Below, piece by piece: positions 6,693 to 39,148 of a stretch of 50,355 bases of DNA. Location: sequence record PZ871096.1, one strand, 5' to 3'. The notes under the pieces are model-generated. The model ran no database searches, was not told where the DNA came from, and was given only the letters and a program-made list of their open reading frames with translations. The position numbers and the translations under genes are program-made. The first letter of the stretch is position 1; each line of letters opens with the position of its first letter. The DNA is from a phage.

Positions 6693-6741
6693 CTAATAGC
6701 ATAAAAAAACATTGCACGTTTAACAAAAAGTGCTATCATCT

Positions 6742-6782: not shown

Positions 6783-7754
6783 ATGGCTAAAAAATATGAT
6801 GAACTAGATGCTACGATTGTAGCGAATCATTTGCAGATTCAGGGTGTTAAGACCGACGCTTCTGATATGGGTATTTGGACCGCTCAAGAGCTACACAAGA
6901 TCCGCTCTACCGCATACGAGAAAGAGTATCCGGCAGGTTCCGCGCTTCGCGTATTCCCTGTAACAAACGAGCTTTCTGATACTGACAAGACTTTCGAGTA
7001 TCAGACTTTTGATAAGGTTGGCTACGCGAAAATTATCGCCGACTACACCGATGATCTGCCGACTGTTGACGCGTTGATGACTTCTGAGTTTGGCAAAGTG
7101 TTCCGCCTGGGTAACGCTTATCTGATCTCCATTGATGAGATTAAAGCAGGTCAGCGAACTGGCAAGAGCCTGTCAACTCGCAAGGCTAACGCTGCGCAAA
7201 ATGCGCATGATCAGTTGATTAACTTCCTAGTGTTCAAAGGTTCCAAGCCTCATAAGATCGTTTCCGTTTTCGATCATCCTAACCTTACGAAAATTGCATC
7301 CAAAGGCTGGATGAGCAATGACGGCAATACCAAGTTCCCGCAGGTAGCAAGCGATGAACTGGAGGCCGCAATCGAAACGATCGAGGAAGTAACAAAAGGC
7401 CAGCACCGAGCGACTAACATCCTGATCCCGCCGTCCATGCGCAAAGTCCTGACGGTTCGAATGGAAAATACCACTGAAAGTTATCTGGAATACTTCCAGA
7501 AGCAAAACGGCGGTATCACTATCGACTCTATCGCAGAGCTTGAGGATATTGACGGCAAAGGTACGAAAGGTTGCTTGGTTTACGAAAAAGATCCAATGAA
7601 CATGAGCATTGAGATTCCAGAAGCGTTTAACATGCTTCCGGCGCAGCCAAAAGACCTTCATTTCAAGGTTCCTTGCACTTCCAAGTGTACTGGCCTTACG
7701 ATTTATCGTCCGTTTACGATGGTGCTTATTACTGGCTTGAAAAAAGCTGAGTAA
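6783..7754 (+). CDS. major capsid protein
   Basis: 323 aa; strong SD GGAGGG; size and position of a lambda-E/T1-type major head protein. Confidence 0.8.
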   Translation: MAKKYDELDATIVANHLQIQGVKTDASDMGIWTAQELHKIRSTAYEKEYPAGSALRVFPVTNELSDTDKTFEYQTFDKVGYAKIIADYTDDLPTVDALMTSEFGKVFRLGNAYLISIDEIKAGQRTGKSLSTRKANAAQNAHDQLINFLVFKGSKPHKIVSVFDHPNLTKIASKGWMSNDGNTKFPQVASDELEAAIETIEEVTKGQHRATNILIPPSMRKVLTVRMENTTESYLEYFQKQNGGITIDSIAELEDIDGKGTKGCLVYEKDPMNMSIEIPEAFNMLPAQPKDLHFKVPCTSKCTGLTIYRPFTMVLITGLKKAE

Positions 7755-8124: not shown

Positions 8125-8544
8125 ATGGTAGATGAATTTTACACAGACGCTGAAATCGTTCAGCAAATCGTAAAGTTGGCCCCGCCAATGCAACAGGTTG
8201 ATCCCGATTTAATTGTGGCATGGATTGAGCTTGCTAAAGAGTTTGTTTGCAAAAAACGGTTTAAAAACTCATACCCGAAAGCGGTTGCGCTTTACACTCT
8301 TCACCTTATGACCTTAGACGGGGCAATGAAACAGGAAGGTGAAAGCGTAGAGAGCTACTCCCGCCGCGTTGCCTCGTTCACTCTGACTGGTGAGTTTAGT
8401 CAGACGTTTGATCGAATTTCTTCCGATACAAGCGGAAAGCAGATCCGACAAACGCCGTGGGGCAAAATGTACGAAGTGTTAAACCGTAAGCACGGTGGCG
8501 GCTTTGGCCTTGTGACTGGATTGCGCCGGAGATGCTGCCGATGA
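8125..8544 (+). CDS. head-tail connector protein (position-based)
   Basis: ORF-track frame 8062-8544; start moved to ATG 8125 (SD GGAG) because a GGGCGC/GCGCCC hairpin lies at 8085-8100 inside the longer frame. Confidence 0.5.
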
Positions 8545-10430: not shown

Positions 10431-10503
10431 CATTCCTGTAAAATCAATCTATCAAATAAATTAATTCCACTTTTAACAAAAAGTGCTATAAGGAGATCTT
10501 GAG

Positions 10504-26101: not shown

Positions 26102-27031
26102 TTATAGCAGTGATTCGGGCTTGTAGAGTTTTCTTTCTACGCCCTGTTTAAAATTATCGTTAACAGGCATCATTATGTCAAGACCTCTTTCCTCTGCCGA
26201 GATTATCACATCACGATCATCTTTCCGGCAGACTACACGCATTCTTCTTTCTCCTTTATATCTATGCGCAACCATTTCAAGATTTGAAGGAGTAAAGCAA
26301 GCCCACACCTCTTGACCAGTTGATAAATGAACATGCTGGGAGTCAACCCAATCAAGGCACAAATAGATCGTCTTATCTGTGCTACCTGTTTTAACAACAG
26401 ATCCGCGCGTGTAGTCGCGAGCTAAAAACCAATCCTTTCCATCCTCATCAATGAAAAGCACGTTACACATTTCATCATCCAGCCCGTCATCATGCACCAG
26501 GTGACAAGGTAGCGCGTGAATGTATCGACCATCCTTGACGCCGCAATCATAATAACAATCTTCCGGCGGATATATCCCCTCATAAACGCTTAAGGGTGTG
26601 CGATCGAATTTTAATGTTTTTGCCATCACTTTTTCGCAGCATTCATGACTTGCCTGTTTCCCGAACGAGTAACCAGAAGAACGCGAAGCGCGCTTGTTTG
26701 CTCTGATCCTGTAATCCTGCGGCACTTTTCCGAGGAAGCGGCCCAAAATGTTGATGGCCTCGCTGTAAGGTTCGCCAGTTAATTTCATTAACCAACCGAT
26801 CCCTGTGTCGTTACCGCATACGTTGCAGATAGCGCCGCCGTCGCCCTCTTCATTTAGCTTATCAGTCCATCTAAAACGATCCTTGCCGCCGCAGTGTGGG
26901 CAAGGCTGATGCTTTTTGTTGAAAACATCGCTATGCAGTCCGCAAATGCTTTGTAGTGCTTCACGCCATAACCCCTTCATATATGGCAAAACGTCTTCTT
27001 TCTGATAGGTCATAAAGTTTTCAGTATTCAT
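26102..27031 (-). CDS. DNA primase (zinc-finger containing)
   Basis: ORF-track frame 26102-27109; start moved to ATG 27031 because a terminator hairpin (27041-27080) lies inside the longer frame; CPHCGG...CNVCG zinc-binding motif. Confidence 0.55.
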   Translation of the reverse strand: MNTENFMTYQKEDVLPYMKGLWREALQSICGLHSDVFNKKHQPCPHCGGKDRFRWTDKLNEEGDGGAICNVCGNDTGIGWLMKLTGEPYSEAINILGRFLGKVPQDYRIRANKRASRSSGYSFGKQASHECCEKVMAKTLKFDRTPLSVYEGIYPPEDCYYDCGVKDGRYIHALPCHLVHDDGLDDEMCNVLFIDEDGKDWFLARDYTRGSVVKTGSTDKTIYLCLDWVDSQHVHLSTGQEVWACFTPSNLEMVAHRYKGERRMRVVCRKDDRDVIISAEERGLDIMMPVNDNFKQGVERKLYKPESLL

Positions 27032-27650: not shown

Positions 27651-29648
27651 ATGATTCCAAATATCGAAAAACAAATATCAGCGTTAGGCGAGGCAGTAAT
27701 AAAAAGCATCCAAGAGCGATTCACGGTTGGCAATATAGTGCCTTATCCTTATCAGTGCGTTGCGTATGCCGAGATCGCAAAGCGCATGAAAAACTATGAG
27801 CATCCTTTCTTTGTTAAGGCTTCTGTGTCGGCTGGCAAAACATTGATGTTTGCGATGGTTGCGGCGCAATGCCGCAAAATGGGATTGAAAATGATGGTCC
27901 TTGCTCGCCAGGCTGAAATTGTTGATCAGGATTCTGAAGAGATCAGCAATCTTGGCGTGCCAAACTCAATCTATTGCGCCGGACTGAAAACAAAAAGCGC
28001 ATACTTTCCGATCGTAGTCGGTTCTGAGGGCACTGTAGTAAACGGATTGTTTAAGTCTTTAGGTGATTATGTTCCGCACGTTATCGGTATTGATGAATGT
28101 CACCAGGTGGATTGGGAGGATCTCGCGGACGCGATAGAAAATAATGAATCTTACCAGCAGATGACCACTAAGAAGGATTTGCCTGTACTGATTGGAGAAG
28201 AACAGCAATTTGATTCCAATGGCGATCCAATGTTCGGAACAGGACGCACACAGTACACGGTAATAATCATGGAAATGATGCGCAGGTGTCGCGAGGCATA
28301 CGGGCACGAATTGCGAATATTCGGTATGACTGGATCTGAATTTCGCGGCGTGGTTCCAATACTGGTTGAAGATAAGAACAAAAAGGGATTCTGGCGTGAG
28401 CAGGTGACTAACATAGACACAAACTACTTAATCAAATTCGGTTCTGTAGTGCCAACAAATTTCGGCGACGTAGGCGACCTGGGGTATGACCTTTCAGAGT
28501 TCGAAGCCAGTAGCGAGGATGGCGTTTCAGACTTTGACGCTAAAACATTGCGCAAGATGGAAGAAAAGATCCATCAAGACGCAACAATGACACAGAAAAT
28601 CATGGCTAAAGTCCATGAGATATGCAAAGACAGGAACGGAGTTTTAGTTACATGCGCAGGGGAAAGACACTGCAAGGAGGCCGCCGCCGCACTGCCGCCA
28701 GGCGTTGAATACAGGATCATAACTGGCAAGACTGGAGACAATCAGCGTAAAGAGTGGCTGAGGGAGGCATACGAGGGAAAAGTAAAATACATCTTCCAGG
28801 TACAGGCGCTTACCACTGGCGTTAACGTTCCGTTTTGGGATACTTCTGTAATACTGAGAAAGATAGGATCTCTAACATTGCTTATCCAGCTTTTGGGGCG
28901 CGGTATGCGACTGCTTAAGCAATGGCACATTGAGCAGGGATTCAAGAAAAAAGACCATCTTGTATTGGATTTTGCCGGTACTATGGATGAGTTAGGGGAT
29001 TTGTATTTCGATCCAATCCTTGAGCAAGCGCAATTCCAAAAGAGATTTACAAACGGGAAAGAGCCTAAGACTTGTCCGATATGTGGAACGCTAAACAGCT
29101 TTTACGCTCGCCGATGTATGCACGTAGACGATAACGGGAAGAGATGCGAGCATTTTTGGACTTACAGAATTTGCGAGGACCAAGTAGATCCGAGAACGAA
29201 AAAGATAATCAAGCGCGGTTGCGGAACAAAAAACGACGTAGTGGCGAGAGTATGCCGTTGTTGCGATATTTCTCTTGTCGATCCTAACGAGAAGTTAAGC
29301 GGCAAGCACTACACCAAAAACGATTGGTGCAACGTTAAATCTTTCCGCGTTGATATGACGAAAAACCAGAAAGGAATTGTTTTTTGCTATGAGCTTGAGG
29401 CCAACGGCGACACGTTCAAGGCATACGAAAGATTTTTCCCTGAGTCAGAAAGCAACATTTGCCGGACGATATGGAGAAAAATAGCATTGCAGCACATACC
29501 GGATCGCAAGATTGCTGGTATGGTGGCGAGCTATAGAAATGCGCGTAAAATAATGTCATACGCTCATCACATCATGCCTCCTGTACGCGTAACGCATCGC
29601 AAAAACGGCAAAGGTGAGGATAACATTGCAAAACGGGAGTTTGTTTAA
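27651..29648 (+). CDS. superfamily-2 DNA helicase with C-terminal zinc-ribbon
   Basis: 665 aa; Walker A (VSAGKT), DECH box (GIDECHQ), C-terminal CPICG...C..H cluster. Confidence 0.75.
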   Translation: MIPNIEKQISALGEAVIKSIQERFTVGNIVPYPYQCVAYAEIAKRMKNYEHPFFVKASVSAGKTLMFAMVAAQCRKMGLKMMVLARQAEIVDQDSEEISNLGVPNSIYCAGLKTKSAYFPIVVGSEGTVVNGLFKSLGDYVPHVIGIDECHQVDWEDLADAIENNESYQQMTTKKDLPVLIGEEQQFDSNGDPMFGTGRTQYTVIIMEMMRRCREAYGHELRIFGMTGSEFRGVVPILVEDKNKKGFWREQVTNIDTNYLIKFGSVVPTNFGDVGDLGYDLSEFEASSEDGVSDFDAKTLRKMEEKIHQDATMTQKIMAKVHEICKDRNGVLVTCAGERHCKEAAAALPPGVEYRIITGKTGDNQRKEWLREAYEGKVKYIFQVQALTTGVNVPFWDTSVILRKIGSLTLLIQLLGRGMRLLKQWHIEQGFKKKDHLVLDFAGTMDELGDLYFDPILEQAQFQKRFTNGKEPKTCPICGTLNSFYARRCMHVDDNGKRCEHFWTYRICEDQVDPRTKKIIKRGCGTKNDVVARVCRCCDISLVDPNEKLSGKHYTKNDWCNVKSFRVDMTKNQKGIVFCYELEANGDTFKAYERFFPESESNICRTIWRKIALQHIPDRKIAGMVASYRNARKIMSYAHHIMPPVRVTHRKNGKGEDNIAKREFV

Positions 29649-30067
29649 TGGCTATAACTGATAAAGGCGATTATCTTGAGTTTTACGAAAGGGATCCAAC
29701 CGACACGAGAAGGGAAGTTAATCACCAGATAGATAGTTTTCAGTGGTTGACTTATGCTCATCCTTATTTGCTGGCGTGGCATACGGTAAACGAGAATGAG
29801 AAGTCTAAAGTAACGGCGATGATTGATCAGCAGTCCGGCTTGGTTAAGGGAGTAAGCGATTTCATCATCCTGATTGGTTTAAACGGAAAATACCCCTTTG
29901 CAGCGATTGAGATCAAACGAGTGAATAAATCAGGCAAGGGGAAAGCATCACCAGTCAGCGATGAGCAAAAGGCTTTTTTGCGTCGCGTTCGCAGCTTAGG
30001 AGGATTCGCTGCGGTAGCCTACGGATTCAATCAGTTTAAGTTGGCTATTGAATACATGCTTAAATAG
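29648..30067 (+). CDS. VRR-NUC domain nuclease
   Basis: 139 aa; GVSDFIIL...AAIEIK...SPVSDEQ matches the VRR-NUC PD-(D/E)XK signature. Confidence 0.65.
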   Translation: MAITDKGDYLEFYERDPTDTRREVNHQIDSFQWLTYAHPYLLAWHTVNENEKSKVTAMIDQQSGLVKGVSDFIILIGLNGKYPFAAIEIKRVNKSGKGKASPVSDEQKAFLRRVRSLGGFAAVAYGFNQFKLAIEYMLK

Positions 30068-30147: not shown

Positions 30148-30873
30148 ATGGCTAAAGATATTTTAGATAAAGACACACATGACGCATTCGTTAGCTTTGA
30201 GCAGTTGGAGAGAGAAACGTTTATAGGGAATGCCCTTGCAACTGGAGGCCATTACCAGGCAGTAAAGCCAAATCAATATTATAAGGTAAGCGGAAACCGA
30301 TACGCTGGAAGCACTACGCCGGACGTTGTGCGAGATATGTGGAGCACGCCTCAAGAGATCGTGGAGTGGATGGAATCAGAATTTGGTGAATACGATCTCG
30401 ACGCGGCAGCAAGCCAGGAAAACGCAGTTTGCGAGAAGTTCTATAGCAAGGAGACAAACTGCTTAAAGCGTTGGTGGGGTAGCAACAAGCACGTATGGCT
30501 TAACCCGCCGTACAGCAACCCAACTCCATTTATCAAGAAAGCAATTGAGCAAATGGAGCACAACAACCAAATTGATGTTTTGTTGCCAGCCGACAACTCT
30601 ACAGCATGGTTTTATGAGGCGCAGAAAAACGCGGCTGAAATCATCTGGATCACTGGTGAGGTTTACGAAGAGGGTGGGGTAGAATACTCCCGCACCGGAA
30701 GAATTGCCTTTGTGTCTGGATTGACTGGCGAGCCTGTGCAGGGCAACAACAAGGGAAGCGTGATTTTTGTCATGCGCAAACTTAAAGAAGGCGAGGAGCA
30801 GAAAACGCGATACGTTAAGATCAGCGATATTTGCCCTTCTGTAACCGAACGTCGCGCACGCAAACGGAGCTAA
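30148..30873 (+). CDS. dam: DNA N6-adenine methyltransferase (phage Dam family)
   Basis: ORF-track frame 30121-30873; ATG 30148 best placed relative to GGAG; catalytic NPPY motif (WLNPPYS). Confidence 0.75.
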   Translation: MAKDILDKDTHDAFVSFEQLERETFIGNALATGGHYQAVKPNQYYKVSGNRYAGSTTPDVVRDMWSTPQEIVEWMESEFGEYDLDAAASQENAVCEKFYSKETNCLKRWWGSNKHVWLNPPYSNPTPFIKKAIEQMEHNNQIDVLLPADNSTAWFYEAQKNAAEIIWITGEVYEEGGVEYSRTGRIAFVSGLTGEPVQGNNKGSVIFVMRKLKEGEEQKTRYVKISDICPSVTERRARKRS

Positions 30874-33683: not shown

Positions 33684-34075
33684 TGAAGAAATTTTTACTT
33701 ACACCAATCGCAATGGCTGTGATCTTGTCTGGATGTTCAAGCGTTACGCCACTGACCGGATTAATCGGCAGTAAGCCGGAAATCACAGCACAGGCTGGCG
33801 CGGAGAACGTGAGGCAGACAGTTGGCATTACAGCAAAGCAGGACGCCAGCACAAAACAGGAAACCACAATAAAGGAATCTGCGGTTGACAAGGTGGACAC
33901 GTCCAGCAAGAAGGATTTCACAACATCAACCATTCAGGCCAATACCATCAAGGCAGACAAAATTCAGGTCGTGCAGGGTAATAACGGCAGATGGTACGAT
34001 CCAATAATCATATGCGTGGTTGTGTTAATTGTGCTGATTTGTCTTTACTGGAGAGAAAAGAAAAAGGAGGCTTAA
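33680..34075 (+). CDS. unimolecular spanin (T1 gp11-type)
   Basis: ORF-track frame 33662-34075; ATG 33680 overlapping endolysin stop; N-terminal lipoprotein signal (AMAVILSG|C) and C-terminal TMD ([16 protein letters not shown]). Confidence 0.7.
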
Positions 34076-34090
34076 TGCCTCCTTTATTTT
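34057..34090. terminator. bidirectional intrinsic terminator at convergent junction
   Basis: A-rich run, AGGAGGC-ttaat-GCCTCCT, T-rich run; spanin stop codon lies in the loop. Confidence 0.7.
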
Positions 34091-34314
34091 TATGCGTCGG
34101 GCCACATATGAGTTTCGTTTGTTGGCTTGTTCGATTCGTCGTACTGCCTTACTTCAATTCTGCAAGTGTCGCCGTACATTTCTGCAATCTTGCGCTCATT
34201 TTCAACCGCCGATTGCTCACTCCATCCAAAATCCCTGTCGTAAATTGTCGGGATTTCAGCAGAAGATCCGTTGTCATGATTATATACGCGAACTACTAAA
34301 AACTTGCTGGACAT
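34090..34314 (-). CDS. hypothetical protein
   Basis: 74 aa; first gene downstream of promoter 34351-34394. Confidence 0.45.
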   Translation of the reverse strand: MSSKFLVVRVYNHDNGSSAEIPTIYDRDFGWSEQSAVENERKIAEMYGDTCRIEVRQYDESNKPTNETHMWPDA

Positions 34315-34350: not shown

Positions 34351-34394
34351 AATATACCCGACACTAGGCCGGGCGTTTTAACAAAAAATGCTAT
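34351..34394 (-). promoter_or_regulatory. conserved-box promoter (inverted duplicate of 31135-31178)
   Basis: minus strand ATAGCATTTTTTGTTAAAAC, spacer GCCCGGCCTAGTGTCGGG, TATATT. Confidence 0.5.
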
Positions 34395-34511
34395 TCCATA
34401 CGCTTTACCGTAACCAGTAATACACCATCATCATTGCATAAAACATGTTCAGTGGTGCTAAAAGCGCGCATATCTGAATAAAGTAGCGTAAGTAAAGCAT
34501 GAATAAAATCC

Positions 34512-34907
34512 TCATGTGATATTGAATTTACGGCGCAGTGCTTCAAGATCTTGTCTATTAGCTTTTGCCTGGAACAATTCATCATCTCCCATCTCCCCTA
34601 TTCTAGCCATATCCCTGATCCAGTCGTTGCGCATACCATCCAGGCTATACAATTCGAATCCGAAAGGCCGCTTTGACGATCCTTTGGACCAGTATTTTCC
34701 GCAGACCCCATCTATATAACCAGCCGTCATCATTCTTGCGCAAAATTCCTTAGATGCAAGGCTGGCGAACATTCGCGGCGTAAGTCCGGCGGCCCGTGCG
34801 AGCCGCTCACATTCTCTATGCTGATAGATAAATTTGGCTATGTGCTGCCTGTTAAACCAGTCGTATGACTCACACCATTTATACAGATCAAGCAAAAACA
34901 TAATCAT
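34512..34907 (-). CDS. hypothetical protein
   Basis: 131 aa, overlaps stop of upstream ATPase gene. Confidence 0.45.
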   Translation of the reverse strand: MIMFLLDLYKWCESYDWFNRQHIAKFIYQHRECERLARAAGLTPRMFASLASKEFCARMMTAGYIDGVCGKYWSKGSSKRPFGFELYSLDGMRNDWIRDMARIGEMGDDELFQAKANRQDLEALRRKFNIT

Positions 34908-36484
34908 CCCAGCAGTATTGGATTGACAAAAATAACACCATTAATCACACAAACATAATTTCTTTCTTCCAGCATTGGCAGCAAGTGCCCCTCTATCCTC
35001 TTCATTACGCCAGCCTGACCAACGAAAGGTTTTACCTTTCTCGCTGATTCGTACAGGGCGCGAATATTCAGGATCCCTTTGTTAGCCTTGCCGTGCCTCG
35101 TGATCAATTCAATCAATTTACCCATTTCAGCATCATCACCAGCATAACCAGAAGCATTGGCGGCGCTAATGTATGTTTTGCTCAATTCCTGAAACATGAT
35201 CAACGCCTCTTGCATTGTTTCCACGTCGATCTCTTTCGACTTCTGCGGGTATCCGGCAGGATTAAACCAGTTACGGATAACATGCAGGACGGAAGCAAGC
35301 CTGATCACCTGTTTATCCATTTTACCCAGCGCACCGCGTAACATTGTATGAGAATACTTTCCGCCGTCTGCAAGATGCGGTTCCATATCCTGGCGAGCAA
35401 TGTTGAGCACTCGCATAGCTGAACGGCTTATTTTCAGCGATATATTTGATTCGCTCATGATGTTATGCACCAATTGATAATATTGGGCCTTCAATTCAGG
35501 ATCCACCGCCTCATAGGTAGAATCACCATTTTCATCAATGAATGAGCGACGGCCTAAGAATGATTCCTCACGGACCAACAAAAAGCGCTCACTCACACCG
35601 ATACCGCGCGATCCAGCGTCCATGATTCCGCTTATCGTTTCATCCTGTGCTATAACGCTCATACATCCAAGCGCGCGAAAACTCATGTTATTGTCAGCAT
35701 TAGCACGGGCAATTGATACGTGACCATTATCCCACGCCTTAAGCACTAGCTCACTGTTAGTCTTCCTTTCGCTATTTGCATAGGTCAAGCCTAACAGACT
35801 GTTAATACTTGTTGCTTCGTCAGATATTACGGCAAAGTTACCTTGCTTGTTGTTGATTTTCGCCAAGCCTTCTGGAGTTGTATCTGAAACAGGGAAAGTT
35901 ATATCACACATCTTTTCCAGCTTCTCTTCCAGATCCTCTTTTTCCTGGTATAGAGATTCCATATCAGCGCCTGATCTTTCGCTTTTCATCTCTTTTGCAA
36001 GACCTGCCAACTTTGCCTGTATTTTCTTTCTTTCCTTGCGGCGTTGCTCGTTGATCTTCTCAACTTCCGCAATCATCGGAGAAATAGCCATACTGTTGAT
36101 CGCAGATTTACCAGTTGACGGCGGCTGGCTTGTAACGACGTAAAGCGCAGTCGGCTGATCGGTCCCGTGATAGTCAACCGTAAAGCGTCCAAGCATGGCG
36201 GCAGAAATGCAGCCGATAAAGTGCATGTAAGCCGATGATTCAGGGAATTGAACTGATCGCGCAATACTGCGTGATAACTTTCCTACAACATCAATATCAT
36301 TACCAAGAGAAATTACGGGGTAGCGATCGTGACCGCTATTTACATCCTTCACGTCGCCCCAAAAGCTGGACGACTGGCGATAGCCGTTAGCCTGAATTGA
36401 TACGCGAACTGGTGAAAGGTTCTGGCTTTCAGCCATGGCGATTATTTGCTGTGGAGTTAATTTGTTCGTTTCTAATGAAAACAT
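34904..36484 (-). CDS. P-loop NTPase-like protein (degenerate Walker A SQPPSTGKS, Walker B FAVISDE); possible replication-associated ATPase
   Basis: 526 aa; motif spacing typical of P-loop ATPases; AAGGAG SD; first gene after promoter 36513-36556. Confidence 0.4.
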   Translation of the reverse strand: MFSLETNKLTPQQIIAMAESQNLSPVRVSIQANGYRQSSSFWGDVKDVNSGHDRYPVISLGNDIDVVGKLSRSIARSVQFPESSAYMHFIGCISAAMLGRFTVDYHGTDQPTALYVVTSQPPSTGKSAINSMAISPMIAEVEKINEQRRKERKKIQAKLAGLAKEMKSERSGADMESLYQEKEDLEEKLEKMCDITFPVSDTTPEGLAKINNKQGNFAVISDEATSINSLLGLTYANSERKTNSELVLKAWDNGHVSIARANADNNMSFRALGCMSVIAQDETISGIMDAGSRGIGVSERFLLVREESFLGRRSFIDENGDSTYEAVDPELKAQYYQLVHNIMSESNISLKISRSAMRVLNIARQDMEPHLADGGKYSHTMLRGALGKMDKQVIRLASVLHVIRNWFNPAGYPQKSKEIDVETMQEALIMFQELSKTYISAANASGYAGDDAEMGKLIELITRHGKANKGILNIRALYESARKVKPFVGQAGVMKRIEGHLLPMLEERNYVCVINGVIFVNPILLG

Positions 36485-36512
36485 TCGTTAGCTTCTCCTT
36501 TGTGGGCCATAA

Positions 36513-36556
36513 ATTTTAACGGCCCAATACTACCCCGTTTTGTCAAAAAGTGCTAT
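36513..36556 (-). promoter_or_regulatory. conserved-box promoter (box variant ATAGCACTTTTTGACAAAAC)
   Basis: 18-nt spacer then TAAAAT lying in the loop of hairpin GGGCC...GGCCC. Confidence 0.5.
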
Positions 36557-36774
36557 TTGATCCGCTCTATTGCAACCAGAAGTCGATCAGGCTGGCGGTC
36601 GCTGTAGCATTCTCCTGTAATCCCATCCTTAAACGTAAAGTAAAGCGCCTTATGATATGAAAAACCAATCAGCCAACCTACCGCCGTTTTTTTGATGGGC
36701 CTGACTATATCGCCAGGCTTGAAAGTCTTTGTGGTAGAATGCGTTACTTTGTAACGGTTTTCACTGTTTATCAC
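36553..36774 (-). CDS. hypothetical protein
   Basis: 73 aa ORF, operon context. Confidence 0.4.
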   Translation of the reverse strand: MINSENRYKVTHSTTKTFKPGDIVRPIKKTAVGWLIGFSYHKALYFTFKDGITGECYSDRQPDRLLVAIERIK

Positions 36775-37157
36775 AGATATTTACCCTCAAAAAGATAACA
36801 GCCGCCAGCAGAGAATCCGACCTCTTCACGGTACAGGTTCCAGCGGTCGCCGCACTCATCAAAAACATAACCCGCAACGCTTCCAAGCGGTCGCCCTTTC
36901 TCGATCTGGTATCGCTTGCCCTGCTTAAAGTGCTTTTTGCACGGCATGTTATGATCTACAAACGTGCAAAGAACGGTTTTTGTGTTAATGGCGCGGTAAT
37001 CATCTCGTTTTGCTGGAAGCCAGCGGCTACCCTTAACAAGCGTCTTAACCTGGAATTCTTCCACCTCGATCACATCATCACTTCCTGCAATCTTCTGATA
37101 AACCGTTTTAAAACGGCCTTTCATCAATACGTTGGTTTCATTACAGATAACATTCAT
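36771..37157 (-). CDS. hypothetical protein
   Basis: 128 aa ORF, operon context. Confidence 0.45.
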   Translation of the reverse strand: MNVICNETNVLMKGRFKTVYQKIAGSDDVIEVEEFQVKTLVKGSRWLPAKRDDYRAINTKTVLCTFVDHNMPCKKHFKQGKRYQIEKGRPLGSVAGYVFDECGDRWNLYREEVGFSAGGCYLFEGKYL

Positions 37158-37186
37158 GATCAGATCTCCTTTGTTTGTTCGATGTG

Positions 37187-37230
37187 ATTATGCCAGGTTT
37201 TTACACCTGGCTTTTAACAAAAAGTGCTAT
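37187..37230 (-). promoter_or_regulatory. conserved-box promoter
   Basis: minus strand ATAGCACTTTTTGTTAAAAG, hairpin spacer GCCAGG...CCTGGC, CATAAT. Confidence 0.5.
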
Positions 37231-37937
37231 TTTGAGTTTGACTCAAAGACGGCGCGAGCAAATCCGCGCGGAGTGAGGGAGCGGATCATCTTTGTGCGCG
37301 ATGACTTCCCGCCAGTTTTGGCCCAGCCTGGATTATCTTTGTCTTCCTCTTTCGGCAGGATTAAAGCGCGCGGAGGAATAACAAAGCCGTTGCCAGTCCA
37401 GAGGCACGTTTTCTTAAAATAGCGATCCCGTGCCGGAATAATATCAGGGAAGTCGGGATGTTTATCATCTTCCGGCAGATAGCCAGCGTAATCGCACGGA
37501 TGGAACGTATAATCAGGCTTTCGCCATAACGTTGACAACTTGCCAACCGGATTTTCGATCATGTAAGGAACACCGAAATAATCAGCTATATCAGCCGCGA
37601 TTCTGCAAGTGTCGGCGGCCTCATCCTGGAATGATGGATTCTCAAGGCGTTTTTTGGCCCAATGGCGAGATCCGCTATTTGCAAGGTCGGTGCATGGTGG
37701 GAAGGCCATAATAAAATCAGGATTGCCCAACTCATTATTGATTGCCTTAACATAAAAAGCATCATCAATCCAGACGTTAACGTATTCGATATTCTCATGC
37801 TGTATGCGCACTGACTGGTAATCACCGTGATCGCCACCGTCAGCATTAAAGCAAATGCACTTATAGCCATTATCAGCCCAATCTTTAACGGCTTTACCAG
37901 ATCCATCAAATAGGGAGAATATTAAACCTTTATACAT
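37227..37937 (-). CDS. DNA (cytosine-5)-methyltransferase
   Basis: ORF-track frame 37227-38006; ATG 37937 with GAGGT SD; motif I LFDGSG, motif IV FPPC(T), motif VI ENPVG in canonical order. Confidence 0.6.
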   Translation of the reverse strand: MYKGLIFSLFDGSGKAVKDWADNGYKCICFNADGGDHGDYQSVRIQHENIEYVNVWIDDAFYVKAINNELGNPDFIMAFPPCTDLANSGSRHWAKKRLENPSFQDEAADTCRIAADIADYFGVPYMIENPVGKLSTLWRKPDYTFHPCDYAGYLPEDDKHPDFPDIIPARDRYFKKTCLWTGNGFVIPPRALILPKEEDKDNPGWAKTGGKSSRTKMIRSLTPRGFARAVFESNSK

Positions 37938-37947
37938 CGTCATTACC

Positions 37948-38172
37948 TCAAAACGGAAAACAGCGCGCACAACCAGGATCGAAATCGCATCCACAATCAT
38001 TAACAATCATAGTGGGATCTGCAAATATTGCGCTTGATTCAAGATCCATATCCATATCACCTAAAGCCTCATCAAGAGTCTTAATTTTATATGCCACTTC
38101 AAGCGCCGCCTCTTTATTTAGTCCGGCATCTTCTGCCATTTGAAGGCGCTCAAAAAAGCCGTCTTGACTCAT
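37948..38172 (-). CDS. hypothetical acidic protein
   Basis: 74 aa ORF. Confidence 0.4.
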   Translation of the reverse strand: MSQDGFFERLQMAEDAGLNKEAALEVAYKIKTLDEALGDMDMDLESSAIFADPTMIVNDCGCDFDPGCARCFPF

Positions 38173-38285
38173 CGCATAATCCCCTTAATAACAGCCAAGA
38201 TAATAGCCAGGCCAGCAGCAGTAACCAAAAATCCAACCGCGCCAATAATCGAATAAAAAAAGAAATCAATAGCTTTATCTATCAT
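38169..38285 (-). CDS. small membrane peptide (38 aa, below ORF-track threshold)
   Basis: hand translation MIDKAIDFFFYSIIGAVGFLVTAAGLAIILAVIKGIMR; GAGGT SD 5 nt upstream; stop overlaps the next start (ATGA). Confidence 0.45.
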   Translation of the reverse strand: MIDKAIDFFFYSIIGAVGFLVTAAGLAIILAVIKGIMR

Positions 38286-38298
38286 TTTCTACCTCATT

Positions 38299-38320
38299 TA
38301 AAAGGCGGCAAAACGCCGCC
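38299..38320 (-). terminator. terminator-like hairpin
   Basis: minus strand GGCGGC-gtttt-GCCGCC followed by TTTT. Confidence 0.5.
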
Positions 38321-38327
38321 AGATTAA

Positions 38328-38555
38328 TTAAAGAGCGCGCCAACTTTGAATATAGAAAGCGTTTTCTTCCAGTAATTCTTTTACCTGATCTTTATTGTAT
38401 TTGCGCACCTTACCGCCTGGATGGATACCAATAAGATAGCCGCCTTTGCCCTCGGTGATAGTGATTTGGCTAATTCCGCAGGACTTATCAAGTTTTACAG
38501 CCACGCGGTGATGAGCGTCAATAGTTGCCATAATGTTTAAAACTTTTGCTTTCAT
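38328..38555 (-). CDS. hypothetical protein
   Basis: 75 aa ORF. Confidence 0.4.
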   Translation of the reverse strand: MKAKVLNIMATIDAHHRVAVKLDKSCGISQITITEGKGGYLIGIHPGGKVRKYNKDQVKELLEENAFYIQSWRAL

Positions 38556-38663: not shown

Positions 38664-38876
38664 TCACTTCTTATTTTTCATCTTAAATTTATGGCCTGGA
38701 ACACCAGAACCAATATAGCCATCGTTGTATTCCATTAAATAAAGGTGAAGGCCATTATCTGAAATTACATGAGGATCTTCTTTGAGATTTCCCATTAGCG
38801 GGTATTCTTTTCCGCGCGTAAATCTCCAAGTTGAGTCATAAGTTTCTACGCATTTAAGTTTTAATTGCTTTGCCAT
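38664..38876 (-). CDS. hypothetical protein
   Basis: 70 aa ORF. Confidence 0.4.
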   Translation of the reverse strand: MAKQLKLKCVETYDSTWRFTRGKEYPLMGNLKEDPHVISDNGLHLYLMEYNDGYIGSGVPGHKFKMKNKK

Positions 38877-39073
38877 TAGATGATCTCCATGTATGTTTCA
38901 AAGCCATTTAACTTGAACAGGCCGTTTTCACATTTGCGAACGTTCCAAGTTAGCCCTGAGTGGTACGCCTCCATATCATCAAGGTCAATGGTGATTTCAG
39001 CACCTTTCTTAAACAAACCTTTTTCGTGAGACTTGTCGCGCTTAACAACTTTAACATCAACCTGATTTTCCAT
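38876..39073 (-). CDS. hypothetical protein
   Basis: 65 aa ORF; SD GAGGA; downstream of promoter 39105-39148. Confidence 0.45.
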   Translation of the reverse strand: MENQVDVKVVKRDKSHEKGLFKKGAEITIDLDDMEAYHSGLTWNVRKCENGLFKLNGFETYMEII

Positions 39074-39104: not shown

Positions 39105-39148
39105 ACTATACCAATCAGCAGCGCATCGTTTTTAACAAAAAGTGCTAT
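39105..39148 (-). promoter_or_regulatory. conserved-box promoter
   Basis: minus strand box, hairpin spacer CGATGCGC...GCGCATCG with TATAGT at fixed 18-nt offset. Confidence 0.5.

What the first reader, a model, noticed from the sequence alone, without database searches (positions are those of the whole stretch)
34512..38555. Leftward accessory cluster: P-loop ATPase, C5-cytosine methyltransferase and several small proteins
Seen directly: a 526-aa protein with degenerate Walker A (SQPPSTGKS) and Walker B (FAVISDE) motifs; a 236-aa protein with C5-MTase motifs I, IV and VI in order; a hand-translated 38-aa single-TM peptide (38169-38285) translationally coupled to its neighbour; and several 70-130-aa ORFs, each sub-operon with its own box promoter. 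Together with Dam (30148-30873) and the VRR-NUC nuclease the phage would carry two DNA methyltransferases. Inference: a host-takeover and anti-restriction arm. The function of the large ATPase, possibly a replication-initiator or SF3-helicase-like protein, is the main unknown and is a candidate for an undescribed function.
Basis: partly seen in the sequence, partly recalled or inferred. Interest (0 to 1): 0.5.

Follow-up and report, generated by a model that had tools for sequence, protein, structure and literature searches.

The report
T1-like phage helicase and Dcm genes
This stretch is the ordinary leftward early-gene arm of a T1-like coliphage, and its large ATPase (an MCM-like replicative helicase), its mini cytosine methyltransferase and one of its small proteins all belong to families already described in the literature.

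Summary
The window is a Warwickvirus (Drexlerviridae, T1-like), 98-99% identical here to phages tiwna, FritzSarasin and SECphi27.

- **236-aa protein.** It is a miniature C5-cytosine methyltransferase: catalytic Cys82 and the ENP motif are conserved, and the fold matches DNMT3. It is 89% identical to the Dcm of phage KarlJaspers. The Dcm of K42, a strain of that phage, makes 5mC at a CCWGG site and triggers retron Ec86.
- **128-aa ORF.** It is 127/128 identical to the SECphi27 protein that triggers Mokosh type I.
- **Other features.** The 38-aa membrane peptide, the overlapping start/stop codons, Dam and VRR-NUC are confirmed. Conserved box promoters precede three of the four sub-operons.

"Anti-restriction arm" is only partly supported, and "undescribed ATPase function" is refuted. 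What remains open is a 131-aa protein always linked to the helicase, plus the other small ORFs.

The parts
34904..36484 (-). 526-aa DUF3987 / MCM-like AAA+ helicase. Walker A is QPPSTGK126S and Walker B is ISD222E223. The candidate sensor-1 region is VIAQDE (277-282), the candidate Arg finger is SER300F, and the candidate sensor 2 is MLR383G. A winged-helix domain lies at about aa 450-526.
34512..34907 (-). 131-aa protein of unknown function. Its start overlaps the helicase stop (ATGA). Some records name it 'YdbL', which is not supported.
   Evidence: phrog_2794. No Pfam, NCBIfam, PADLOC or PDB hit. Found in 835 phage records, in the listed hits beside the helicase gene, with nearly the same host distribution as the helicase. 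Restricted to T1-like phages.
34391..34585 (-). 64-aa ORF overlapping the 3' end of the 131-aa ORF by 74 nt in another frame.
   Evidence: phrog_9539 at E 1.6e-25. Annotated in FritzSarasin and KarlJaspers but not in SECphi27 RefSeq.
34090..34314 (-). 74-aa ORF, the last gene of the leftward arm. It lies just outside the finding.
   Evidence: phrog_27210. A bidirectional terminator-like hairpin at 34063-34085 separates it from the lysis genes.
34376..34394 (-). Conserved promoter box (1 mismatch) with a TATATT -10-like hexamer 19 nt downstream.
36538..36556 (-). Conserved promoter box in front of the helicase (ATAGCACTTTTTGACAAAA), with TAAAAT 19 nt downstream. It contains the stop codon of the 73-aa ORF.
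36553..36774 (-). 73-aa ORF of unknown function. Its GTG start overlaps the stop of the 128-aa ORF.
   Evidence: phrog_12725 at E 6e-8
36771..37157 (-). 128-aa protein, orthologue of the SECphi27 'protein of unknown function (128aa)' that triggers Mokosh type I. Its native function is unknown.
   Evidence: 385/387 nt and 127/128 aa identical to the sequence printed in the supplement of bioRxiv 10.1101/2022.08.27.505566. The SECphi27 escape mutation E7fs maps to gp13, the syntenic gene. phrog_2684. Only the C-terminal half (about aa 55-128) is conserved in most Drexlerviridae.
37212..37230 (-). Conserved promoter box in front of the 128-aa ORF, with CATAAT 19 nt downstream. It contains the stop codon of dcm.
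37227..37937 (-). 236-aa mini C5-cytosine DNA methyltransferase (Dcm-like, 711-bp gene). C82 is the catalytic Cys, E128-N129-P130 is motif VI, and K175/K176 are the residues mutated in the published inactive variant.
   Evidence: phrog_757 at E 3e-86. Family alignment. AF2 model pLDDT 93.8. Foldseek hits DNMT3A/3B catalytic domains, E 2e-7. 89% identical, with no gaps, to KarlJaspers Dcm. The K42 (KarlJaspers strain) Dcm was shown to make 5mC at a CCWGG site and to trigger retron Ec86.
37948..38172 (-). 74-aa acidic protein of unknown function, 10 nt upstream of dcm.
   Evidence: phrog_9323 at E 8e-37
38169..38285 (-). 38-aa single-pass membrane peptide. Its stop overlaps the next start (ATGA).
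   Evidence: Sequence read directly. A hydrophobic homologue is conserved in KarlJaspers, a different genus.
38304..38320 (-). Terminator-like hairpin GGCGGCGTTTTGCCGCC followed by TTTT, between the 75-aa ORF and the 38-aa ORF.
   Evidence: KarlJaspers has a different stem sequence (GGGAG...CTCCC, then a T run) at the same place.
38328..38555 (-). 75-aa protein of unknown function.
   Evidence: phrog_4344 at E 6e-27
38876..39073 (-). 65-aa homologue of Gp54 of phage Bas11 (SECphi27 Gp19). It lies outside the finding but in the same arm.
   Evidence: PDB 9AXB/9ERV 'Gp54' at E 4e-17; PMC11578894.

Best explanation
The region is the distal half of the leftward-transcribed early arm of a Warwickvirus, a T1-like siphovirus of the Drexlerviridae. 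It mixes one core replication gene with dispensable accessory genes.

(1) The 526-aa protein is the phage's MCM-like (SF6, DUF3987) AAA+ helicase. By inference it forms a ring, binds DNA through its C-terminal winged helix, and unwinds the fork. It would work with the phage's stand-alone primase (zinc-binding domain of the primase-helicase type, 26102-27031), SSB and the host polymerase. No DnaB-type helicase or DNA polymerase is named in the annotation of the near-identical phage FritzSarasin.

(2) The 131-aa protein is translationally coupled to the helicase and linked to it across the family. It is probably a helicase accessory factor, but this is inference only.

(3) The 236-aa protein is a miniature C5-cytosine methyltransferase. 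By orthology it methylates CCWGG. Together with Dam (GATC) it lets the phage keep its 123 CCWGG and 311 GATC sites instead of purging them. The cost is that the same activity is sensed by retron Ec86 (Eco1).

(4) The 128-aa protein is the orthologue of the Mokosh type I trigger. The remaining small ORFs are accessory proteins of unknown role.

(5) Transcription is modular. A family-specific 19-nt box plus a -10-like hexamer precedes three units: helicase/131/64, 128/73 and the terminal 74-aa gene. The 38-aa / 74-aa / dcm unit has no box and lies behind a conserved terminator-like hairpin. It would therefore be expressed by read-through from the box at 39130.
For: Identity of the phage: 98-99% nucleotide identity over 4.4 kb to tiwna, FritzSarasin, SECphi27 and others, with the same gene order.

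Helicase:
- PF13148 at 151.6 bits.
- Invariant K126, E223, R300 and R383.
- In 36-39% identical homologues the gene is immediately followed by an SF2 helicase, a DUF3799 exonuclease and AAA_24/SSB in one locus, and by a DnaG-type primase and an SF2 helicase in the other.
- Present in 926 phage records, essentially the whole family.
- Literature: DUF3987 described as SF6, MCM-related, with a C-terminal wHTH and predicted to be replicative (PMC4889955). The PriCT-DUF3987 protein AgaPH is an ATP-dependent 5'->3' helicase that loses activity on Walker A/B mutation (PMC11724360).

Methyltransferase:
- Conserved C82, ENP and K175.
- Confident model matching DNMT3A/B.
- 89% identity to KarlJaspers Dcm, with residues 121-236 nearly identical.
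- Published 5mC by LC-MS, dependence on the CCWGG site, and a C82A/E128A/K175A/K176A null.
- CCWGG and GATC are not depleted: 123 and 311 sites against Markov expectations of 127 and 306.

128-aa protein.

Promoters:
-.
- Mutations just upstream of the Gp54 gene in Bas11 lowered its expression (PMC11578894).
- The window's Gp54 homologue lies directly downstream of the box at 39130.
Against: - No experiment exists on any Drexlerviridae DUF3987 protein. Ring formation, polarity, essentiality and partners are all inferred.
- The helicase gene is about 8 kb from the primase, not adjacent as is typical for DUF3987.
- The phage has a second helicase (SF2, 27651-29648).
- The protein lacks an MCM-type N-terminal OB domain.
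- D222 of Walker B is Ala in some homologues.
- HMMER alone does not link either protein to a solved structure. The methyltransferase gets no Pfam or NCBIfam hit, so its assignment rests on motifs, the predicted fold and orthology.
- CCWGG specificity was shown on retron msDNA for an 89% identical enzyme, not for this one on phage DNA.
- BASEL found no simple relation between methyltransferase content and restriction resistance.
- The box has a 22-nt gap between TTGTTA and the -10 hexamer, which is atypical for sigma-70. The standard promoter scan found no enrichment.
Confidence: 0.8

Rival explanations
1. First reader's reading. The cluster is a host-takeover and anti-restriction arm, and its large P-loop ATPase has an undescribed function, possibly SF3-like or an initiator.
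For: The arm does carry a DNA methyltransferase and many small early proteins, several of them dispensable (K42 deletion of 2,262 bp; SECphi27 E7 frameshift). FritzSarasin, which is 98.6% identical here, is among the few restriction-resistant Drexlerviridae.
Against: The ATPase is a textbook DUF3987/MCM-like helicase with a published family assignment and biochemistry. SF3 proteins (AAV Rep, SaPI5 primase-helicase, ASFV PrimPol) score far lower than MCM. No anti-restriction or host shut-off protein family was detected in any ORF. There is no methyltransferase/restriction-resistance correlation in BASEL.
Confidence: 0.08
2. The DUF3987 protein is not the fork helicase. It would be an origin-binding or melting initiator, or a helicase used for recombination-dependent replication or restart, while the host DnaB is recruited for bulk synthesis.
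For: It has a C-terminal winged helix and a small N-terminal helical domain suited to site-specific DNA binding. Orc/Cdc6 winged-helix domains are among the hits. The gene is separated from the primase. The phage has RecE-like, Erf-like and SSB recombination genes.
Confidence: 0.12
3. The mini-Dcm does not serve to protect against restriction. Its role would be different, for example marking phage DNA for packaging or replication control, or acting on host DNA or RNA. Its retention despite retron sensing would reflect that other role.
For: There is no methyltransferase/restriction correlation in BASEL. E. coli K-12 hosts already methylate CCWGG through their own Dcm (established knowledge), which makes a phage copy redundant there. 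The gene sits behind an attenuating hairpin.
Against: The family is extremely widespread in unrelated virulent phages: 1,499 records including 137-149 kb myoviruses. That pattern is typical of mobile anti-restriction methyltransferases. The genome keeps its CCWGG sites. Many natural hosts, such as E. coli B, lack Dcm (established knowledge).
Confidence: 0.1

Closest known systems
DUF3987 (PF13148) SF6/MCM-like helicases of phages and mobile elements, e.g. [quoted passage not shown]
   Same: Strong Pfam match. Walker A GK[ST] and Walker B DE motifs. MCM-like AAA+ fold. C-terminal winged helix. Replication-module context in distant homologues.
   Different: No fused PriCT or primase domain. The primase is encoded 8 kb away, not immediately upstream. 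A family-specific 131-aa gene is coupled downstream. No biochemistry exists for any T1-like member.
Archaeal and eukaryotic MCM helicases
   Different: About 12-16% sequence identity. No N-terminal OB/zinc domain. A long helical hairpin (aa 124-191) follows Walker A. If the family's measured 5'->3' polarity applies here, it is opposite to MCM's 3'->5'.
Dcm of phage KarlJaspers strain K42 (trigger of retron Ec86/Eco1)
   Same: Same length (236 aa, 711-bp gene). 89% identity to the KarlJaspers Bas06 protein. Identical C82, E128, K175 and K176. Same genomic position. The SD mutated in K42 escapers corresponds to the GAGG before the window's ATG.
   Different: 25 substitutions, nearly all in aa 1-120. 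Activity and specificity have not been tested for this allele.
Canonical C5-cytosine methyltransferases (PF00145: M.HhaI, EcoKDcm, DNMT3A/B catalytic domain)
   Same: Rossmann SAM-binding fold. PC catalytic motif IV and ENx motif VI in the canonical order. Closest solved folds are DNMT3A/B.
   Different: Only 236 aa, with a very short target-recognition region. No significant PF00145 or NCBIfam hit. No recognisable QxRxR motif VIII. TM-score to DNMT3 is only about 0.5.
SECphi27 128-aa protein (Mokosh type I trigger) and Gp54 of Bas11 (CapRelSJ46 trigger)
   Same: The window's 128-aa ORF differs by one residue (K50 against N50) from the SECphi27 protein. The 65-aa ORF at 38876-39073 is a clear Gp54 homologue (E 4e-17 to PDB 9AXB).
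   Different: [quoted passage not shown] The native functions of both proteins are unknown.

Membership tests
DUF3987 / SF6 MCM-like AAA+ helicase | Significant match to Pfam PF13148 above the gathering threshold | tested here: met
   E 4.3e-44, 151.6 bits against a cut-off of 27. It covers aa 81-430, which is profile positions 3-350 of 364.
DUF3987 / SF6 MCM-like AAA+ helicase | Walker A (GxxxxGK[ST], with variation) and Walker B (hhhhDE) | tested here: met
   QPPSTGK126S is invariant. ISD222E223 has E223 invariant, and D222 is Ala in some homologues.
DUF3987 / SF6 MCM-like AAA+ helicase | MCM-like AAA+ fold | tested here: met
DUF3987 / SF6 MCM-like AAA+ helicase | [quoted passage not shown] | tested here: met
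DUF3987 / SF6 MCM-like AAA+ helicase | Arginine finger, sensor 1 and sensor 2 placed as in MCM | tested here: inconclusive
   Invariant R300 (SERF), VIAQDE 277-282 and R383 are good candidates by order and conservation. No residue-level structural superposition was available.
DUF3987 / SF6 MCM-like AAA+ helicase | Association with a primase, fused or adjacent | tested here: not met
   In the window the primase (PF08273, 26102-27031) is about 8 kb away. A DnaG-type primase is adjacent in the 39% identical homologue L005.
DUF3987 / SF6 MCM-like AAA+ helicase | Oligomeric, ATP-dependent DNA unwinding | not testable with these tools
   Shown only for AgaPH (PMC11724360).
C5-cytosine DNA methyltransferase | Motif IV Pro-Cys with catalytic cysteine | tested here: met
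   FPPC82TD. C82 is invariant and P80 nearly invariant in 59 sequences.
C5-cytosine DNA methyltransferase | Motif VI ENV | tested here: met
   E128-N129-P130. P130 is invariant and E128 and N129 are nearly invariant.
C5-cytosine DNA methyltransferase | Motif I FxGxG SAM-binding loop after beta-1 | tested here: inconclusive
   LFDGSG follows strand 5-9 and precedes helix 15-22 in the model. The family consensus is SLFDxTG, which is only a partial match to FxGxG.
C5-cytosine DNA methyltransferase | Motif VIII QxRxR and a sizeable target-recognition domain | tested here: not met
   No QxRxR is recognisable by eye. The conserved K175-x-T177-x-x-W180 segment sits where it would be. The whole protein is 236 aa.
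C5-cytosine DNA methyltransferase | Match to Pfam PF00145 or an NCBIfam methyltransferase model | tested here: not met
   No hit for the window protein. Only 3 of 59 family members reach E about 0.007.
C5-cytosine DNA methyltransferase | C5-methyltransferase fold | tested here: met
   AF2 pLDDT 93.8. The top 46 Foldseek PDB hits are DNMT3A/B/C catalytic domains and a prophage DNA methyltransferase (3g7u), E 2e-7 to 4e-5, TM 0.4-0.57.
C5-cytosine DNA methyltransferase | Formation of 5-methylcytosine | not testable with these tools
   Shown by LC-MS for the Dcm of phage K42, a strain of KarlJaspers. The window protein is 89% identical to the KarlJaspers Bas06 Dcm.
Mokosh type I trigger (SECphi27 128-aa protein) | Sequence identity with the tested protein | tested here: met
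   127/128 aa and 385/387 nt identical.
Mokosh type I trigger (SECphi27 128-aa protein) | Toxicity with Mokosh I and escape on loss of the gene | not testable with these tools
   Reported for SECphi27.

The most novel reading that the evidence does not exclude
The DUF3987 helicase and the 131-aa protein form a two-protein initiation or helicase-loading module specific to Drexlerviridae. The 131-aa protein is always encoded directly downstream, is translationally coupled, has no detectable homologue outside T1-like phages, and resembles no known family. It would be a new kind of helicase accessory: an origin recogniser, a loader, or a bridge to the host polymerase. This would explain how T1-like phages replicate with no polymerase or DnaB of their own. 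A related possibility is that the remaining small ORFs (73, 74, 75 and 38 aa), which neighbour three known defence triggers, include undescribed counter-defence proteins.
Probability: 0.25. Interest if true: 0.4.

Novelty: already known. Interest (0 to 1): 0.15.

Why it matters
Little is new here. The value is in correct labelling.
- The large ATPase should be called an MCM-like (DUF3987) replicative helicase.
- The 236-aa protein should be called a mini Dcm-type C5-methyltransferase and a retron Ec86 trigger orthologue.
- The 128-aa ORF should be called the Mokosh I trigger orthologue.

T1-like phage replication has never been reconstituted, so the helicase plus 131-aa pair is a reasonable, modest entry point. 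The mini-Dcm family is very large, with 1,196 clusters at 50% identity, and is invisible to Pfam and NCBIfam. That is a practical annotation gap.

Tried and rejected
- **HMMER against PDB sequences.** Single-sequence and profile searches gave nothing meaningful for the helicase, the methyltransferase, the 128-aa protein or the 131-aa protein. Only predicted-structure comparison linked the two enzymes to solved folds.
- **NCBIfam and PADLOC.** No hits for any of the ten proteins.
- **Standard sigma-70 scan.** No enrichment: 14 sites against 16.8 expected. It misses the box promoters because of their unusual spacing.
- **Are the small ORFs a paralogous family?** All-against-all BLASTP found nothing below E 0.1. 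Rejected.
- **Do the small ORFs travel with DUF3987 in distant phages?** tblastn against two distant loci found only the helicase. The 131-aa link therefore holds within Drexlerviridae only.
- **Other defence-trigger papers.** The Retron-Eco11 'phage helicase trigger' paper concerns SF2 UvsW/D10-type helicases, not DUF3987. The RAZR triggers in SECphi27 are a recombinase and a portal protein, not genes of this arm. A search for Drexlerviridae helicase escape mutants found nothing relevant.
- **Record names.** 'YdbL' for the 131-aa protein has no support from the family scans. 'TamB' for the 38-aa peptide gets no Pfam or NCBIfam hit.

Full report
**What the window is.** The 4.4 kb around the finding is 97.6-98.8% identical to about 30 sequenced coliphages, including tiwna, FritzSarasin (BASEL Bas04), tonijn and SECphi27. 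All of these are Warwickvirus, Tempevirinae, Drexlerviridae, that is, T1-like siphoviruses. Gene order matches FritzSarasin throughout:
- structural genes run rightward;
- a recombination/replication block follows (RecE-like exonuclease, Erf-like protein, SSB, primase, SF2 helicase, VRR-NUC, Dam);
- then lysis genes;
- then a long leftward arm, at about 34.1-41.4 kb of the window, to which the finding belongs.

**Observation.**
- The Walker motifs are present and conserved. In 34 homologues down to 36% identity, QPPSxGKS and E223 are invariant, while D222 is replaced by Ala in some.
- The methyltransferase motifs are present. C82 and P130 are invariant, and E128, N129 and K175 are nearly invariant, in 59 family members of 34-56% identity.
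- The 38-aa peptide is hydrophobic throughout. It overlaps the next gene by ATGA and has a hydrophobic counterpart in a different genus.
- Stop/start overlaps also join helicase to 131-aa and 128-aa to 73-aa.

**The 'box'.**
- ATAGCACTTTTTGTTAAAA occurs 19 times in the window against 0.14 expected.
- Most copies point in the direction of the genes that follow them.
- In the 13 copies I measured, a CATAAT/TATAGT-type hexamer lies 22 nt (21 in one) downstream of TTGTTA, followed by a leader and a ribosome-binding site.
- Three copies lie in or at the edge of the finding, at 34376, 36538 and 37212. Two of them contain the stop codon of the upstream gene.
- The 38-aa / 74-aa / dcm group has no box. 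It follows a GC-rich hairpin plus T-run at 38304-38320.
- KarlJaspers has a hairpin of different sequence at the same place. That argues for a conserved attenuator.
- Dam (PF05869) and VRR-NUC (PF08774) are confirmed.

**The 526-aa ATPase.**
- Sequence: it matches Pfam DUF3987 at 151.6 bits against a cut-off of 27, and PHROG 2373 'DNA helicase'. Plain and profile HMMER searches against PDB sequences found nothing.
- Literature: this is what Kazlauskas et al. described, namely that DUF3987 proteins are divergent SF6 helicases related to MCM, carry a C-terminal wHTH, are often linked to primases, and are predicted to be phage replicative helicases (PMC4889955). A 2025 study purified a PriCT-DUF3987 protein, AgaPH. 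It is oligomeric, binds its PrimPol, and unwinds 5'-tailed and forked DNA in an ATP-dependent way that is abolished by Walker A/B mutations (PMC11724360).
- Candidate catalytic residues, inferred from order and conservation and not superposed: VIAQDE (277-282) as the sensor-1 region, SER300F as the arginine finger (compare MCM SRFD), and MLR383G as sensor 2.
- Context: in two metagenomic phages whose DUF3987 proteins are 36-39% identical, the gene is directly followed by replication genes. One has an SF2 helicase, a DUF3799 exonuclease, AAA_24 and SSB. The other has a DnaG-type primase, an SF2 helicase and a DUF3799 exonuclease.
- In the window the same partners exist but sit about 5-14 kb away. 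The primase has a zinc-binding domain of the primase-helicase type (PF08273), and no helicase domain was detected in it. No DnaB-type helicase or polymerase is named in the near-identical FritzSarasin annotation.
- The protein is found in 926 phage records, essentially all Drexlerviridae.
- I conclude it is the family's replicative helicase. The family assignment and fold are shown. Ring formation, polarity, partners and essentiality in T1-like phages are inferred.

**The 131-aa neighbour.**
- It has no Pfam, NCBIfam, PADLOC or PDB relative, even with a profile. It occurs only in T1-like phages.
- It is found in 835 phage records with almost the same host breakdown as the helicase, down to about 46% identity. 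In the listed hits that show neighbouring annotation it lies next to the helicase gene. Its start overlaps the helicase stop.
- It is absent next to the distant DUF3987 genes.
- A helicase accessory role is a reasonable guess and the only mildly novel lead here.

**The 236-aa methyltransferase.**
- Family size: it gets no Pfam or NCBIfam hit, and a 59-sequence profile does not reach PF00145 or any PDB sequence. Yet it belongs to a very large family of 210-260-aa proteins. The word-indexed search found 3,033 hits. The search of 50%-identity cluster representatives found 1,196. There are 1,499 phage records from many unrelated phage groups.
- Fold: the AF2 model is very confident (pLDDT 93.8). 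Its best PDB matches are the DNMT3A/3B/3C catalytic domains and a prophage DNA methyltransferase (E 2e-7 to 4e-5, TM about 0.5). The Rossmann core, motif IV Cys and motif VI Glu are in canonical order. Motif VIII and a normal-sized target-recognition domain are not recognisable.
- Experiment: Dcm of phage K42, a strain of KarlJaspers/Bas06, is also a 711-bp gene. It was identified as the trigger of retron Ec86. It produces 5mC on msDNA by LC-MS, needs the CCWGG site, and is inactivated by C82A/E128A/K175A/K176A. [quoted passage not shown]
- Comparison: the window's protein is 89% identical to KarlJaspers Dcm without gaps, and nearly identical from residue 121 on. It has the same numbered residues. 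A GAGG Shine-Dalgarno covers the position matching the escape mutation. This supports the 236-aa start over the 257-aa start annotated in FritzSarasin.
- Sites: the genome keeps 123 CCWGG and 311 GATC sites, close to Markov expectation. That fits self-protection by methylation.
- Caveat: BASEL found no simple relation between methyltransferase genes and restriction resistance in this family, although FritzSarasin itself is highly resistant (PMC8594841).

**The small ORFs.**
- The 128-aa ORF is 127/128 identical to the SECphi27 'protein of unknown function (128aa)'. Its expression is toxic with Mokosh type I, and its frameshift (E7fs at SECphi27 position 6995, inside gp13) lets the phage escape (bioRxiv 10.1101/2022.08.27.505566 and its supplement). 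Most Drexlerviridae conserve only its C-terminal half.
- Just outside the finding, the 65-aa ORF at 38876-39073 is a homologue of Gp54 of Bas11 (PDB 9AXB, E 4e-17). Gp54 is a non-essential beta-barrel protein that directly activates CapRelSJ46. The SECphi27 homologue Gp19 does not (PMC11578894).
- The 73-, 74-, 75-, 64- and 38-aa ORFs match only PHROGs of unknown function. They are not paralogues of one another.
- Three genes of this arm, or their close homologues, are therefore published triggers of abortive-infection systems. All three are dispensable in the laboratory.

**Verdict.** It is wrong on its main point, since the ATPase belongs to a known replicative helicase family. Novelty: already known. 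Interest is low. The residual leads are the helicase-linked 131-aa protein, the native roles of the trigger proteins, and the lack of Pfam/NCBIfam coverage for the mini-Dcm family.

Noticed in passing
whole window; e.g. 30064, 31135, 39130, 40435, 41781, 42244, 45434, 48230: The 19-nt box ATAGCACTTTTTGTTAAAA occurs 19 times (0.14 expected). A -10-like hexamer lies 22 nt (21 in one) after TTGTTA in the 13 copies measured, about 5 nt more than the usual sigma-70 spacing. The T-tract/A-tract resembles an UP element. The box is also present in FritzSarasin, SECphi27 and KarlJaspers. It may need a phage factor or act as a UP-element-driven promoter.
   Followed up: partly
window 6718-6736 (-) and 10471-10489 (-): Two box copies point leftward inside the rightward structural-gene block. 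They could be antisense promoters.
   Followed up: no
whole window: CCSGG is strongly depleted: CCCGG 2 against 10.8 expected and CCGGG 2 against 13.0. CCWGG (123) and GATC (311) are at expectation. This suggests past selection by a CCSGG- or CCNGG-type restriction system that the phage's methyltransferases do not cover.
   Followed up: no
window 38876-39073 (-): A 65-aa ORF is a homologue of Gp54 of Bas11 (PDB 9AXB/9ERV, E 4e-17), the second trigger of CapRelSJ46. It lies directly downstream of the box at 39130.
   Followed up: partly
window 38304-38320 (-); L008 about 8143-8189: A terminator-like hairpin lies between the 75-aa and 38-aa ORFs. KarlJaspers keeps a hairpin at the same place with a different stem sequence (GGGAG/CTCCC) plus a T-run. 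This suggests a conserved attenuator in front of the dcm sub-operon.
   Followed up: partly
window 37938-38006 (-): The mechanical ORF for dcm starts at a TTG (259 aa), and FritzSarasin annotates 257 aa. The 236-aa start is supported by a GAGG SD, by the 711-bp gene length in the retron paper and in SECphi27/KarlJaspers, and by a K42 escape mutation 9 bp upstream.
   Followed up: yes
window 34391-34585 (-) against 34512-34907 (-): The 64-aa ORF (phrog_9539) overlaps the 3' end of the 131-aa ORF by 74 nt in another frame. It is annotated in some relatives and not in others. KarlJaspers conversely leaves the 131-aa ORF unannotated.
   Followed up: no
window 26102-27031 (-), 27651-29648 (+), 29648-30067 (+): The primase matched only the zinc-binding domain of primase-helicases (PF08273), and no helicase domain was detected. 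The 665-aa SF2 helicase (ResIII + Helicase_C) is immediately followed by the VRR-NUC nuclease. SF2 helicases of the UvsW/D10 type are reported triggers of Retron-Eco11.
   Followed up: no
helicase aa 222 (window about 35819-35821): The Walker B aspartate is Ala (ISAE) in several DUF3987 homologues, while the following Glu is invariant.
   Followed up: no
helicase aa 124-191: The model shows a long two-helix hairpin of about 65 residues, rich in Lys and Glu, directly after Walker A. I did not notice a counterpart in MCM, but no residue-level alignment was available. It falls within the span matched by the DUF3987 Pfam profile.
   Followed up: no
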